From Macrostomum lignano (Eukaryota), in NCBI GenBank assembly GCA_002269645.1, contig NIVC01000307.1:62001-126000 (forward strand): a DNA stretch of 64,000 bases, in the 5' to 3' direction. How positions within the stretch are numbered: the stretch's first letter is position 1; the number at the start of each line of letters is the position of its first letter. Below are positions 26,301 to 38,300 of this stretch, piece by piece. The position numbers and the translations under genes are program-made. The notes below the pieces were generated by a model that saw nothing but the letters and a program-made list of their open reading frames with translations, made no database searches and was not told where the DNA came from.

Positions 26301-29300
26301 TGCCTCAGATCTGTGTGTGTGTCATCTCTGCCTCAGATCTGTGTGTGTCATCTCTGCCTCAGATCTGTGTGTGTCATCTCTGCCTCAGATCTGTGTGTGT
26401 GTCATCTCTGCCTCAGATCTGTGTGTGTGTCATCTCTGCCTCAGATCTGTGTGTGTCATCTCTGCCTCAGATCTGTGTGTGTCATCTCTGCCTCAGATCT
26501 GTGTGTGTCATCTCTGCCTCAGATCTGTGTGTGTCATCTCTGCCTCAGATCTGTGTGTGTCATCTCTGCCTCAGATCTGTGTGTGTCATCTCTGCCTCAG
26601 ATCTGTGTGTGTGTCATCTCTGCCTCAGATCTGTGTGTGTCATCTCTGCCTTAGAATTGGTGTTGTTTATTCCTCATTCACAAAGGCTTTTAAATTGTTA
26701 GTTTTCATTGCACGCGATTCTTAAATTTGCACCAGAAACTGTGTTTTTCTTAGAATTGTGTTTCTTTACAGTTTAATTTACTGTGTCGTTACCTTTTCGG
26801 TTAATTTTTTCCCTTGAAATTTGTTATTTAGGAAATTGTTAAAGATTTTGTTTTCTTTTTTTCAATAAGTTGATATTTGTTGCAAGTTGCAAGTTGAAAT
26901 AATTTCTAATTCGCAGAAATGCCGGTCAGCAGTCCTCTAGTCAGCAGGGCACCAGTTTCAGCCCGGAAGAGATGAGCTCCTGCATCCGGCAGGCTGCTCA
27001 GGATATTCAGAGTCTCACTGGGACTTCATCTGCTGGTCCGGCCACTTGGGCTGAGCCGCGCTCTGTGGCTTCTGCTGCTGCTGCCGCCGCTACTAGTAGC
27101 AGGAACGGTCAAACTAATCAAAGGCTTGCGAATAGAAATTATCAACAGCAGCAGCCTGCCTACCAGCTGCCGAGCTATCAGGCGGATCCATTTTCAGCAG
27201 ACGACTACCAGCAGCTGATGATGCAGCCGCAGCCGCAACAGCAAAGTCTGCAGTCTGGCGATCTGCTTCTAGCAGATATTGTTCGAGAGCTGTCCGGCGC
27301 CAGGAATCAGCGGTGAGCTGCTGTGGTCTGAGGGAATTTCGAAATATTTTTTCCAGAATGAGTTTTCTTAATGTATGGCTTGAATGCGACTGCTGTTTTA
27401 TTGTATTTTTTCACCACATCTGTAATGCATATCACCGTGTTACTAGCTATCTATCTATCTATCTATCTATCTATCTATCTATCTATCTATCTATCTATCT
27501 ATCTATCTATCTATCTATCTATCTATCTATCTATCTATCTATCTATCTATCTATCTATCTATCTATCTATCTATCTATCTATCTATCTATCTATCTATCT
27601 ATCTATCTATCTATCTATCTATCTATCTATCTATCCATCCATCTGTGCGCAACTGATCTGCAGCTCCCAAAGAAGGCAGGAAGTCCCAGCTCGCGGCCCG
27701 GCAGCAGGCGGAATCAGTCGCAGCCGAAGTTCTCGCCCGGTGACAAAATTCTCAGACTCAGCGGGGGCTGCAGCTGAGGAAGTCAAAAGTCTGGTGCCCT
27801 CTTGCTCTCGGCGAAGTCGCAGTTTAACGCCGAAGAGGTCCTGAGAGTCGGGTGGCTTGTTGTAGTGCGGTTATTGTCTCCCTTAGAACAGCTGGCAGTG
27901 GGATGCACCGAATTTTATATTTTCATTGCGTATATACTACTCTATGCACATAGTAGTAGTATAGTAATTACTTATTCTAGACAAAATCGATCAATATGTT
28001 TTGCATGGGTTGCCTGTCTGTAAAATTGCTTATATTTTAAGCATGTGTTTTTTATCTTACAGTAGAAATTGTTTTTCAATTGTTTTTAATGGTGATTGTC
28101 TCTTCTGTTGTTTTTGTCTGGTTCTTGCAGTAAATACAATAGTTCATTGCTAATGCTTCTTGACTACTAAGCAACGGCAGATGGCTTGATTTTGGAGGTG
28201 AGGTGGGTGTCAACCCTCCTCGCCTCTCATTGGCTGGCGCCCCGATCACTAGGTGATCGATACCCGTATCGATATCGGCGCTCGGCGCGCGCGCGCCGCA
28301 GGCGCGTGGCGCCAAGCGCCGTCCAGCCGCAGGCGACCCTCCCCAGCCACCGGCGACCCTCCCCAGCCGCAGGCGCACCTACCGATATGTATGCCCACCC
28401 TACCGATATGTACCCCGATATGTACACCCTCCCGAGCCGCAGGCGCACCCTCCCGAGCCGTAGGCGCCCATGCCGCAGACGCCCATGCCGCAGGCACCCC
28501 GAGTGTACACTCTACCGAGCCGCAGGCACCCCGAGTGTACACTCTACCGATATGTACACTCTACCACTCTCCCGATATGTAGTCAACGATATTAGGCTAG
28601 TGAAAACTACTTATAGTAGGTGAAATTGAGTATATTTACATAAAAATGTAGATAAAACATATTGGTAGGTGAATAATGACGCATATTGCATATTAAAATG
28701 TACATATTGGAGCATATGAGCAGCAAAAACACACAATGTAGGTGTATGGGCAGAAATAGACAAAGCAGGTACTGTAGGCGCTACATAGGTGGAAATACAC
28801 ACAGCAGGTTTACAAAGTGAACTTTCGATAAATATCGGATTAATGTATAAAGCAGGTTTACAAGGCATGCATAAGGTGTAGTTGTATAATACAGGCACGC
28901 ATGTATAATCAGATTATAGGCAAACGCCCAGGTGCAACAGACGCGTAAATAATGTCGCACCGACTAAAGAGTAAATATTGTCTAACCCGCAGGTGCATAA
29001 ATATTAAACAAAAGCGGTTCGGGGAAATCCCAAAAGGGAGGTTTTAGCCGCCCGTTTTCGCCACCGCCGCCGCCGCCCTAACCCTCTTATAGGTACAATT
29101 GCGTTGAAAGTATTTCGAGTCATTAGGTTGTAATGACCCTCCATATTTTAGGTGGGTGGACTCGAGCCCGGGGCCAGCCCATTTCAGTTTTTTGGGCCGG
29201 CCCCTCTGCCAATTTCCTCCCTAGGAGCGAGCTATCAGAATTGGTCTTTTAACCCCCGTGTATACACACATAGAGGCCCCCAGCTAGCGCCCATTCTAAC

Positions 29301-35300: not shown

Positions 35301-38300
35301 AAGGCCCTGCAGTTGGGTTACAAGCTGCAGTCAGTTCATGCCCTGGCCTATTGGACCGAGACTCGCACGGGCCTGTTTGCAGATTATGTAAACACCTTTT
35401 TGAAGCTCAAAGCCGAGTCTAGCGGTTCGCCGGGGATGGCTGAGGACGCCAAGGCTGCCTACATGGCCAGCTTTTTCGAGCGCGAAGGCGTCCGGCTGGA
35501 AAAGGTGGAGGAGAATCCTGGCCTGCGCTTTGTTGCCAAGATTTTTCTAAACTCGTAAGTTTTTCTACTTGCAGTGGGGGCCATGTTTTTCTACTTACAT
35601 AAAATTTATTTTTCCCTGCAGGCTCTGGGGCAAGTTCTGCCAGCGCGACGACCTGACCTCCACAGAGATTGTGGACAGCTACGAGGCGTGGCTGCAGCGC
35701 CTGACAGACCCCTCGATCAAGGTCAAGTCGTGCGAGCCAATTGGGGAGAGCTTCATGATGCTCGAGTACAAGCCCCGATTTGGCGGTGCTGGCGAGCGGG
35801 CGTTCAAGTACGCCAATGTACCTATTGGCGTTTTCACCACCTCCCACGCCCGGCTGCGACTCTACGAGGCTCTGGAGGGTCTAGGAACCCGCGTCATTTA
35901 CGCCGATACCGATTCGTAAGTAATTTTTTCACTGTCTCTGTCTCTCTTTCTCCCCTTAACACTTTTTATCCTTCTCCTCCTCCCAGGGTCGTATACCGCT
36001 GCTCCCCGGGCGAGTACGAGCCTCCGGGCGGTTCGAGTTTGGGGCAGTGGACTGACGAGGTACCTGCTGGCTGCCGCATGGTACAGTTCACCACGGGAGG
36101 CCCCAAGCTCTACCGGTACGTGGTGGAGAAGCCCGACAGGTCGCTGTACTCGGTGCTCAAGTGCAAGGGCATCAGAGTCACCCCCGAGATTTCCGAGCGC
36201 GAGGACGAGCTGCAGGAAATTCTGCGCCACGGGGGCTCTGTCCGCCTGCCCCAGGCCCAGTTCAGGCGCGATAAGGCTAGCTGTACAATCCGGACCCTCG
36301 AGATGGACAAGACTTTCCAACGTGTAATGACTAAGAGGGTGTATGGGGCCGCTAGCCGCCCGTATGGCTTTCGTGAGTGAGTGAAAGATAAGGATCTATC
36401 TTTTTTACGCCTGGGATTCCCCTATGTGCCCACTTGGGGTCCCTTGACTCGTGGGGATGAAAATGGTTTTACGCCCGCACTGTACTTAGGGGTCCTTACT
36501 CATTTGGCACCTCCACTGTACATTGAGCGGGATCCCTTCAAGTGTTAAAACTCCCATTTGACACCTATTCCCTCGGGGCGGTTTGTGGCCCAGCGGTCCG
36601 CCTCTTGGAGTAGAACTCCTGACATGAACTTGCTGCGCTGATTAGCGTACTGATAGCGCAATCGAAATACGTTGTCCATTTTTCTAGCCCACTTGTGGGT
36701 TTAATTGTGTTGAAAGTATATCGGGTCATTAGGCCGTGAACCTCCCTTTTGGGATTTCCCCGAACCGCTTTTGGTTAAAATTTTTATGCACCTGCGGGTT
36801 AGACAATATTTACTCTTTAGTCGGTGCGACATTATTTACGCGTCTGTTGCACCTGGGCGTTTGCCTATAATCTGATTATACATGCGTGCCTGTATTATAC
36901 AACTACACCTTATGCATGCCTTGTAAACCTGCTTTATACATTAATCCGATATGTATCGAAAGTTCACTTTGTAAACCTGCTGTGTGTATTTCCACCTATG
37001 TAGCGCCTACAGTACCTGCTTTGTCTATTTCTGCCCATACACCTACATTGTGTGTTTTTGCTGCTCATATGCTCCAATATGTACATTTTAATATGCAATA
37101 TGCGTCATTATTCACCTACCAATATGTTTTATCTACATTTTTATGTAAATATACTCAATTTCACCTACTATAAGTAGTTTTCACTAGCCTAATATCGTTG
37201 ACTACATATCGGGAGAGTGGTAGAGTGTACATATCGGTAGAGTGTACACTCGGGGTGCCTGCGGCTCGGTAGAGTGTACACTCGGGGTGCCTGCGGCATG
37301 GGCGTCTGCGGCATGGGCGTCTGCGGCATGGGCGCCTACGGCTCGGGAGGGTGCGCCTGCGGCTCGGGAGGGTGTACATATCGGGGTACATATCGGTAGG
37401 GTGGGCATACATATCGGTAGGTGCGCCTGCGGCTGGGGAGGGTCGCCGGTGGCTGGGGAGGGTCGCCTGCGGCTGGACGGCGCTTGGCGCCACGCGCCTG
37501 CGGCGCGCGCGCGCCGAGCGCCGATATCGATACGGGTATCGATCACCTAGTGATCGGGGCGCCAGCCAATGAGAGGCGAGGAGGGTTGACACCCACCTCA
37601 CCTCCAAAATCAAGCCATCTGCCGTTGCTTAGTAGTTTCTTGACCCAATACTCAGATTACTGGCGTACGCGGGCTGGGGGTCAGAGAGGGGCCTGAAACC
37701 CCCCCCCCTTCCAGGTATTACCAATCGCTCTAACAAAAATTTCGCTCCAGAACTAACCACCAGTCTAAGAAACGGGACAGTCGCTTCTACCAAGAGATAG
37801 TGGCTTCTACCAAGAGACAGTCGCTTCTACCAAGAGATAGTGGCTTCCACCAAGAGACAGTGGCTTCTACCAAGAGACAGTGGGTTCTACCAAGAGACAG
37901 TAGCTTCTACCAAGAGACAGTGGGTTCTTCCAAGAGACAGTGGCTTCTACCAACAGACAGTGTCTTCTACCAAGAGACAGTGGCTTCTACCAAGAGATAG
38001 TGGCTTCTACCAACAGACAGTGTCTTCTACCAAGAGACAGTGGCTTCTACCAAGAGATAGTGGCTTCTACCAAGAGACAGTGGCTTCTACCAAGAGACAG
38101 TGGCTTCTACCAAGAGATAGTGGCTTCTACCAAGAGACAGTGGCTTCTACCAAGAGACAGTGGCTTCTACCAAGAGACAGTAGCTTCTACCAAGAGATAG
38201 TGGCTTCTACCAACAGACAGTGTCTTCTACCAAGAGATAGTGGCTTCTACCAACAGACAGTGTCTTCTACCAAGAGATAGTGGCTTCTACCAACAGACAG

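What the first reader, a model, noticed from the sequence alone, without database searches (positions are those of the whole stretch)
28163..37636. Minimal replication-only Polinton-like element: intact pPolB, TIRs and 6-bp TSD, but no integrase, capsid, ATPase or adenain protease
Seen: a 9,474-bp unit with exact ends and a perfect TTCTTG TSD. Its interior is fully occupied by polB, a PC4-like gene and small orphans. I found no RVE/DDE integrase motif, no Walker A FtsK-like ATPase and no jelly-roll capsid-sized ORF. Known: canonical Polintons are ~15-25 kb and encode integrase, ATPase, protease and capsid proteins, and the 6-bp TSD is attributed to their integrase. Inference: this element keeps replication but borrows integration and packaging. 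It could be (a) a satellite of a helper Polinton, (b) one segment of a segmented Polinton/adintovirus-like genome sharing these TIRs, or (c) a new linear-plasmid-like lineage. It is unlike a simple deletion derivative because all the remaining genes are neatly arranged around their own promoters.
Basis: partly seen in the sequence, partly recalled or inferred. Interest (0 to 1): 0.9.

Follow-up and report, generated by a model that had tools for sequence, protein, structure and literature searches.

The report
Polinton virus split into two segments
This 9.5-kb element is most likely the DNA-copying half of a virus-like jumping gene whose other half (insertion enzyme, shell and packaging genes, no polymerase) sits separately in the same flatworm genome with the same ends, a two-part layout I found no report of for this virus group.

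Summary
In detail: a 9,474-bp unit with ~880-bp TIRs and a TTCTTG target-site duplication (TSD), carrying pPolB and no integrase or capsid gene. The pPolB has six spliceosomal introns, five seen spliced in RNA-type runs. The unit is not alone. Searching its ends in G000 finds three unit types sharing the 5'-ACTACTAAG tip, each with its own 6-bp TSD: P (pPolB, about 9.5 kb); S (about 10.4 kb: integrase, double-jelly-roll capsid, penton, protease, ATPase, no polymerase); and B (non-coding palindromes). A sister family (5'-ACTACGTA ends) is split the same way. Nine of 9 two-ended S units lack a polymerase; 15 of 16 two-ended P units lack any capsid or integrase hit, and the other holds a foreign insertion. 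Both halves show purifying selection (pN/pS mostly below 0.1). Tip variants are shared across types, and chimeric ends exist. Canonical Polintons in the same genome keep their polymerase in cis. Best reading (0.72): a bipartite Polinton, with P replicating both halves and S integrating and packaging both. Particles, free DNA and mutual dependence are inferred, not shown. Ten literature searches found no bipartite Polinton.

The parts
28157..28162 (+). Left 6-bp target-site duplication TTCTTG
28163..29043 (+). Left TIR (~880 bp). The outer ~32 bp is the tip shared with the S and B units; it starts ACTACT and holds two hypervariable blocks (positions 10-19 and 21-25)
29380..30369 (-). Accessory orphan ORF (329 aa here, 336 aa in most copies; acidic, low-complexity; possible 3' intron at about 29,438-29,528). 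Absent from variant copies L001 and L029 and not detected in family-2 P units
   Evidence: no Pfam, PHROG or Atlas hit; homologues only in the same species
30486..31018 (-). PC4-like gene (165-177 aa in most copies; frame break near 30,850 in this copy). Accessory: found in 1 of 5 two-ended family-2 P units
   Evidence: Pfam PC4 E 0.02 here, 1.3e-6 for the family-2 homologue
31258..36380 (+). Protein-primed DNA polymerase B, 1,276 codons in 7 exons: 31258-31318, 32081-32125, 32198-32766, 33004-34923, 35007-35554, 35622-35915, 35987-36380. vOTU-like Cys/His, Exo I-III, a VSR-like insert and Pol A/B/C motifs (motif names recalled)
   Evidence: 5 of 6 splice joints listed in RNA-type runs, none listed in the DNA run
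36565..36729 (-). 54-aa ORF next to the right TIR; doubtful gene
36739..37636 (-). Right TIR
37637..37642 (+). Right 6-bp target-site duplication TTCTTG

Best explanation
The unit is the replication segment (P) of a bipartite Polinton. Its partner (S, about 10.4 kb, elsewhere in G000, e.g. C807:310882-321422) carries the integrase, major and minor capsid proteins, maturation protease and packaging ATPase but no polymerase. SHOWN: two complementary gene sets, a shared tip, independent integration of each with 6-bp TSDs, purifying selection on both, spliced pPolB transcripts, and the same split in a sister family. INFERRED mechanism: P's pPolB, primed by its terminal-protein domain, copies any linear DNA with the family tip (P, S, B) by strand displacement, and panhandle pairing keeps both ends of a copy alike. 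S's integrase recognises the same tip and inserts each segment separately; S's capsid and ATPase package ~10-kb molecules. B palindromes, chimeras and mini-units are defective passengers of the same pool.
For: 9 of 9 two-ended S units have all seven capsid/integrase-module genes and no hit to 15 polymerase queries; 15 of 16 two-ended P units have no such hit. 41 of 42 two-ended units have a 6-bp TSD and 35 have identical 30-nt tips. Tip variants are shared among P, S and B; one S end is a P/S chimera (C150). 64 S sites against 91 pol sites share 3 contigs, the nearest pair 48 kb apart. pN/pS: pol exon 0.04-0.08 (6 copies), MCP 0-0.06 (5), integrase 0.06-0.08 (2 informative of 3). Family 2 is split alike, with its own tip on both halves. 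The S capsid folds as a double jelly roll (PBCV-1 Vp54, E 1e-18). Canonical Polintons in G000 keep pol in cis in 4 of 4 evaluable loci.
Against: No particle, free linear DNA or S transcript was examined; all laid runs were contigs. P and S share only ~32 bp, not whole TIRs. Clearly defective units (B palindromes, a pol-truncated B/P chimera, mini-units) are also mobilised, so mobility alone does not make P a genome segment. Penton pN/pS is higher (0.19-0.54). Genome searches are capped (98 of 451 MCP, 96 of 174 pol, 150 of 292 ATPase candidates scored), so a rare joined copy is not excluded. One assembly only; relatives at 80-81% MCP identity lie on contigs under 4 kb.
Confidence: 0.72

Rival explanations
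1. One-way parasitism. P is a linear-plasmid-like satellite that uses S's integrase and capsid. S does not need P and is copied by the host or by the polymerase of a canonical Polinton in the same genome.
For: Canonical Polintons with their own polymerase are abundant in G000. P carries no gene that S is shown to need other than pPolB.
Against: S has no replicase. Its tip matches P (ACTACT) and not the one canonical element whose ends were read (AGTAGTAG). Tips sort by family on both halves and share variants.
Confidence: 0.12
2. P and S are reciprocal deletion derivatives of a monopartite ~20-kb parent that is exogenous, missing from the assembly or extinct; they spread as non-autonomous elements.
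For: P plus S genes add up to one canonical Polinton (compare C106, and the monopartite IMG/VR element L097). Searches are capped and cover one assembly.
Against: Differences between copies are mostly synonymous in both halves, so both genes worked after the split. Two families (pol 55-74%, MCP 88%, integrase about 80% identical) are split the same way. The two pol sites found near a capsid module are one P insertion, with its own TSD, inside an unrelated element. The four oversized pol units fetched are P plus insertions.
Confidence: 0.12
3. Assembly artefact: a monopartite element broken at internal repeats.
For: Long palindromes and scattered frame breaks are typical long-read errors; some insertions occur twice in the assembly (L002/L004, L030/L031, C4072/C2932).
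Against: Each unit is flanked by host DNA with a matching, different 6-bp TSD (41 of 42). 20 runs from 7 studies hold at least half of the unit's sampled words.
Confidence: 0.02

Closest known systems
Polintons/Mavericks (adintoviruses; class Polintoviricetes)
   Same: pPolB, retroviral-like integrase, double-jelly-roll MCP, penton, protease, A32-like ATPase, long TIRs and 6-bp TSD, when P and S are taken together. The VSR-like insert resembles the pPolB2 subgroup of Jeong et al. (PMC10748475, passages; matched by motif only).
   Different: The genes sit on two separately integrating ~10-kb units. Ends are ACTACT rather than the AGTAGT of the canonical element read here. pPolB has six spliceosomal introns. 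Survey pipelines that require pPolB and integrase within 20 kb (PMC10748475; 10.1101/2024.01.15.575659; passages) would miss both halves.
Bidnaviruses and Drosophila Vesanto virus
   Same: Segmented genome, Polinton-derived pPolB, TIRs with matching termini between segments (PMC4061559, PMC8502044, PMC8363768; passages).
   Different: Those are ssDNA viruses with a parvovirus-type capsid and NS1 helicase in place of the Polinton morphogenetic module. Here the module is kept whole, on its own segment, with an integrase.
Transpovirons and cytoplasmic linear plasmids
   Same: Capsid-less linear replicon built on a pPolB-related gene (PMC11161782, PMC13215967; passages).
   Different: P has a full exonuclease-bearing pPolB, no helicase fusion, integrates with a 6-bp TSD, and has a polymerase-less partner of matching ends.
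Non-autonomous Polinton derivatives
   Same: B palindromes and mini-units behave like these (recalled from the transposon literature; not read here).
   Different: P and S each keep genes under purifying selection, and no autonomous parent with their ends was found.

Membership tests
Canonical (monopartite) Polinton | Protein-primed PolB | tested here: met
   Pfam PF03175; motifs; open spliced frame
Canonical (monopartite) Polinton | Integrase on the same element as pPolB | tested here: not met
   No hit in the window unit or in 15 of 16 P units; integrase is on S (Pfam rve 38 bits, cut-off 32.6)
Canonical (monopartite) Polinton | Capsid, protease and ATPase genes on the same element | tested here: not met
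   Absent from P, present on 9 of 9 S units
Canonical (monopartite) Polinton | Long TIRs and 6-bp TSD | tested here: met
Canonical (monopartite) Polinton | 15-20 kb length | tested here: not met
   P 9.5 kb, S about 10.4 kb; the sum is about 20 kb
Polintoviricetes (P+S taken as one genome) | Double-jelly-roll major capsid protein of Polinton type | tested here: met
   pLDDT 80, Foldseek to PBCV-1 Vp54 E 1e-18; 30-35% to animal Polinton-type capsids
Polintoviricetes (P+S taken as one genome) | Penton, adenain-like protease, A32-like ATPase | tested here: inconclusive
   Named from recalled motifs, gene order and 26-37% tblastn matches to the monopartite element L097; Pfam hits are below cut-off
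Bipartite virus | Complementary essential genes on separate molecules with shared termini | tested here: met
Bipartite virus | Both segments replicate as free DNA and are packaged | not testable with these tools
   Only assembled contigs were available
Bidnaviridae | Parvovirus-type capsid and NS1 helicase, ssDNA | tested here: not met
   The S capsid is a double jelly roll; no NS1-like Pfam hit among 13 S ORFs; strandedness not testable
Transpoviron | pPolB-superfamily-1 helicase fusion lacking the exonuclease | tested here: not met
   Exo I-III motifs present, no helicase hit

The most novel reading that the evidence does not exclude
A functioning bipartite, integrating dsDNA virus of the double-jelly-roll lineage in an animal. 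Replication and morphogenesis/integration modules are fixed on separate ~10-kb segments, possibly packaged one per particle, in two sister families each with its own palindromic defective satellite. Polymerase-only and capsid-only 'incomplete' Polintons in other animal genomes could be unrecognised halves of the same kind.
Probability: 0.5. Interest if true: 0.95.

Novelty: new variant of a known kind. Interest (0 to 1): 0.88.

Why it matters
Segmented genomes are documented for the ssDNA bidnaviruses, but I found none for Polintons or other double-jelly-roll dsDNA viruses in ten searches (open-access library only, Repbase not searchable). A 2026 preprint proposes, as speculative, that replication modules of these viruses move on their own (10.64898/2026.10.13.758929, passages); this is a concrete case with both modules as stable separate units. 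It offers a route for the polymerase swapping seen in Polintons and a possible intermediate toward linear plasmids and segmented bidnaviruses. Why multipartite viruses are nearly confined to plants and fungi is called unresolved in PMC11721093 (passage); this system is in an animal whose polymerase gene is transcribed and spliced. It also predicts that standard searches requiring pPolB next to integrase miss a class of elements.

Tried and rejected
Orphan ORF as a hidden capsid or integrase: no Pfam, PHROG or Atlas hit, homologues only in the same species, and it is missing from variant copies. Joined P+S copy: oversized tip pairs fetched (C4, C56, C106, C150, C271, C583, C694, C200, C126, C538, C600) were P, S or B units with insertions; C485 and C221 were not fetched. 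Two pol sites 8-9 kb from an ATPase are one nested insertion. S ORF4 as a single-strand binding protein: a hunch; only 4 relatives, model pLDDT 39, no Atlas hit; not claimed. B as a coding third segment: no protein-level match between B1 and B2, 1 of 11 short ORFs kept in all 6 other copies, no Rfam hit in 7 loci. Relatives with long context: viral and metagenome scans each gave one distant locus. The run search listed no holder on record as RNA; RNA status is a guess supported by GT-AG joints. The pol tree is an unfinished quick tree with a long-branch warning; only the P1+P2 grouping is used. PDB sequence search with the ATPase gave nothing significant. Seven loci from the 13-base pattern (L032, L034, L035, L037-L040) did not match the element interior and were dropped. 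Earlier-finding look-ups by place, words and sequence were empty.
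Full report
Observation. The unit spans 28,163-37,636 (9,474 bp) between two TTCTTG copies and begins 5'-ACTACTAAG at both ends. The TIR is 881/898 bp at 97.8%. The main gene is a protein-primed PolB (Pfam PF03175) in seven exons with six GT-AG introns and an open 1,276-codon frame, checked exon by exon. 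Five of the six joints are listed in contigs of RNA-type runs (three in all 3 studies laid, one in 2, one in 1); none is listed for the DNA run (18 joints were not shown, and RNA status is the tool's guess). Divergently placed are a PC4-like gene, with a frame break near 30,850 in this copy, and an orphan ORF; TATA boxes precede all three genes. The nearest named polymerases are labelled Macrostomum lignano in UniRef (91-99% identity); other organisms fall to 30% or less.

Three unit types behind one tip. A 30-place tip pattern has 161 matches in G000 against 0 for the control (100 listed). Fetching tip pairs gave three types. P is the window's unit; its large exon is 95.7-99.5% identical in 11 copies. 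S is 10.3-10.6 kb, longer where it holds insertions, and encodes a Fic protein, three unknown ORFs, a TBP-like protein, PW, another unknown ORF, an rve integrase, penton, PZ, major capsid, protease and ATPase (the names PW, PZ, penton, protease and ATPase rest on recalled motifs, gene order and 26-37% matches to L097). The capsid models at pLDDT 80 and matches PBCV-1 Vp54 at E 1e-18. B units are 5.7-9.5-kb whole-element palindromes with no conserved coding signal. P and S share only the outer 32 bp; the rest of their TIRs differs.

A second family is split the same way. Capsid hits at 87-88% and polymerase hits at 65-66% mark a sister family with 5'-ACTACGTA ends (269 tip matches against 35 control). 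Its P units keep the exon layout, its S units keep the gene order, and it has its own palindromes. The S1 and S2 capsids form one clade (99/100), so the simplest history is one split before the families diverged (inference).

Census. Of 42 units with both ends fetched (P1 10, S1 6, B1 12, S2 3, P2 5, B2 6; two duplicate loci and one-ended loci left out), 41 have a 6-bp TSD and 35 have identical 30-nt tips. Nine of 9 S units give no hit to 15 polymerase queries of both types present in this genome; 15 of 16 P units give no hit to 12 capsid/integrase queries. The sixteenth (C271, 40.6 kb) holds a 34%-identical foreign integrase and a weak protease hit inside an insertion, and no capsid. Among 64 S sites and 91 polymerase sites from the search lists, three share a contig and the nearest pair is 48 kb apart. 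These lists are capped (98 of 451, 96 of 174, 114 of 1,543 and 150 of 292 candidates scored). Two polymerase sites near a distant ATPase are one P insertion, with its own GACGAG duplication, inside an unrelated Polinton's capsid gene. As an internal control, 4 of 4 evaluable canonical Polintons carry a different polymerase type in cis (a fifth was cut by a contig end), as does the IMG/VR element L097. The script label 'polAlpha' is mine and is not tied to the published Alpha/Beta classes.

Both halves have been working. Copy-to-copy pN/pS is 0.04-0.08 for the large polymerase exon (6 copies), 0-0.06 for the capsid (5) and 0.06-0.08 for the integrase (2 informative of 3); the penton is less constrained at 0.19-0.54. 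Two short tip blocks vary in a small set of forms, and the common forms occur on P, S and B alike. One S end is P-type for about 45 bp and then S-type (C150). A B/P chimera with a truncated polymerase occurs at two sites with different flanks. These point to one recombining pool. They also show that defective units get mobilised, which is why the selection and two-family evidence carry the argument.

Mechanism. From established knowledge of protein-primed replicons (PMC11161782, passages: TP-vOTU-Exo-Palm layout), P's polymerase would prime at the ACT-repeat tip of any unit and displace the other strand; panhandle pairing would keep both ends alike. The 6-bp TSD is the mark of a retroviral-like integrase, and the only one on an element with these ends is on S. 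S has no replicase, so each half lacks what the other has. P, S and most full B units all measure about 8-10.5 kb, although family-2 P needs only about half of that for its polymerase, which hints at a packaging size near 10 kb (inference). Free DNA, particles, S expression and dependence were not observed.

Comparison. Taken alone, P fails the canonical Polinton test (no integrase or capsid in cis); P plus S passes it. Segmented relatives in print are the ssDNA bidnaviruses and Vesanto virus, with parvovirus-type capsids (PMC4061559, PMC8502044, PMC8363768, 10.1101/2024.03.25.586562; passages). I also read passages of PMC10748475, PMC6431247, PMC13215967, PMC11131425, PMC11721093, 10.1101/2024.01.15.575659, 10.1101/2025.04.19.649669, 10.64898/2026.06.19.733378 and 10.64898/2026.10.13.758929; none of those passages describes a bipartite Polinton. 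Ten searches listed none. I read no whole text and no supplements; supplementary element lists, subscription papers and Repbase could hold a prior description. Two unchecked scan notes from other genomes describe integrase-less polymerase units; they are leads only.

Verdict. Bipartite Polinton 0.72; one-way satellite 0.12; derivatives of an unseen monopartite parent 0.12; artefact 0.02. New variant of a known kind; interest 0.88.

Noticed in passing
L009, L011-L013, L021, L024, L030, L071, L072 (family 1); L083-L091 (family 2): Whole-element palindromes of 5.7-9.5 kb with own TSDs exist in both families. The family-1 arm holds internal, ~71%-identical pieces of the S TIR; the family-2 arm resembles the non-coding part of its P unit at ~73%.
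   Followed up: partly
L099:1028-9726 and L100:826 onward: The same B/P chimera (B arm joined into the large polymerase exon) occurs at two sites with different flanks, so it was itself amplified.
   Followed up: partly
L001, L014, L029, L107, L110: A P variant lacks the orphan ORF and has a different PC4 C-terminus and different inner TIR sequence.
   Followed up: partly
L101, L102, L103: Mini-units of 0.46-1.4 kb with family-1 tips; two of three have matching TSDs.
   Followed up: partly
L012:449-1321 and 6992-7243; L106:5141 to L107:4195: A B unit splits the integrase gene, and a P unit splits the capsid gene, of unrelated canonical Polintons; conversely a canonical 12.1-kb AGTAGT-ended Polinton sits inside a B unit (L045-L047).
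   Followed up: partly
L025:1103-1906 and 3442-3975: S1 carries a Fic-domain gene (Pfam E 7e-14; not detected in the three S2 units) and a TBP-like gene (E 1e-4), which a canonical element here also seems to have.
   Followed up: no
L042:2975-6465; L069:~860-9800; L057:3002-6283: Nested foreign elements: a THAP/P-like transposase ORF (981 aa) in an S unit, tandem LTR retrotransposons in a B unit, and a non-LTR retrotransposon in a family-2 P unit (names from reading the ORFs, not searched).
   Followed up: no
window 27443-27644 and 37776-38983: The element sits between a (CTAT)50 microsatellite and a 60-copy 20-bp tandem array; the rest of the window looks repeat-rich and was not annotated.
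   Followed up: no
P0001-P0003, P0056, P0057: Capsid (80-81%) and ORF4 (57-61%) relatives from other unnamed samples on contigs under 4 kb show the lineage extends beyond this genome; too short to test for the split.
   Followed up: partly
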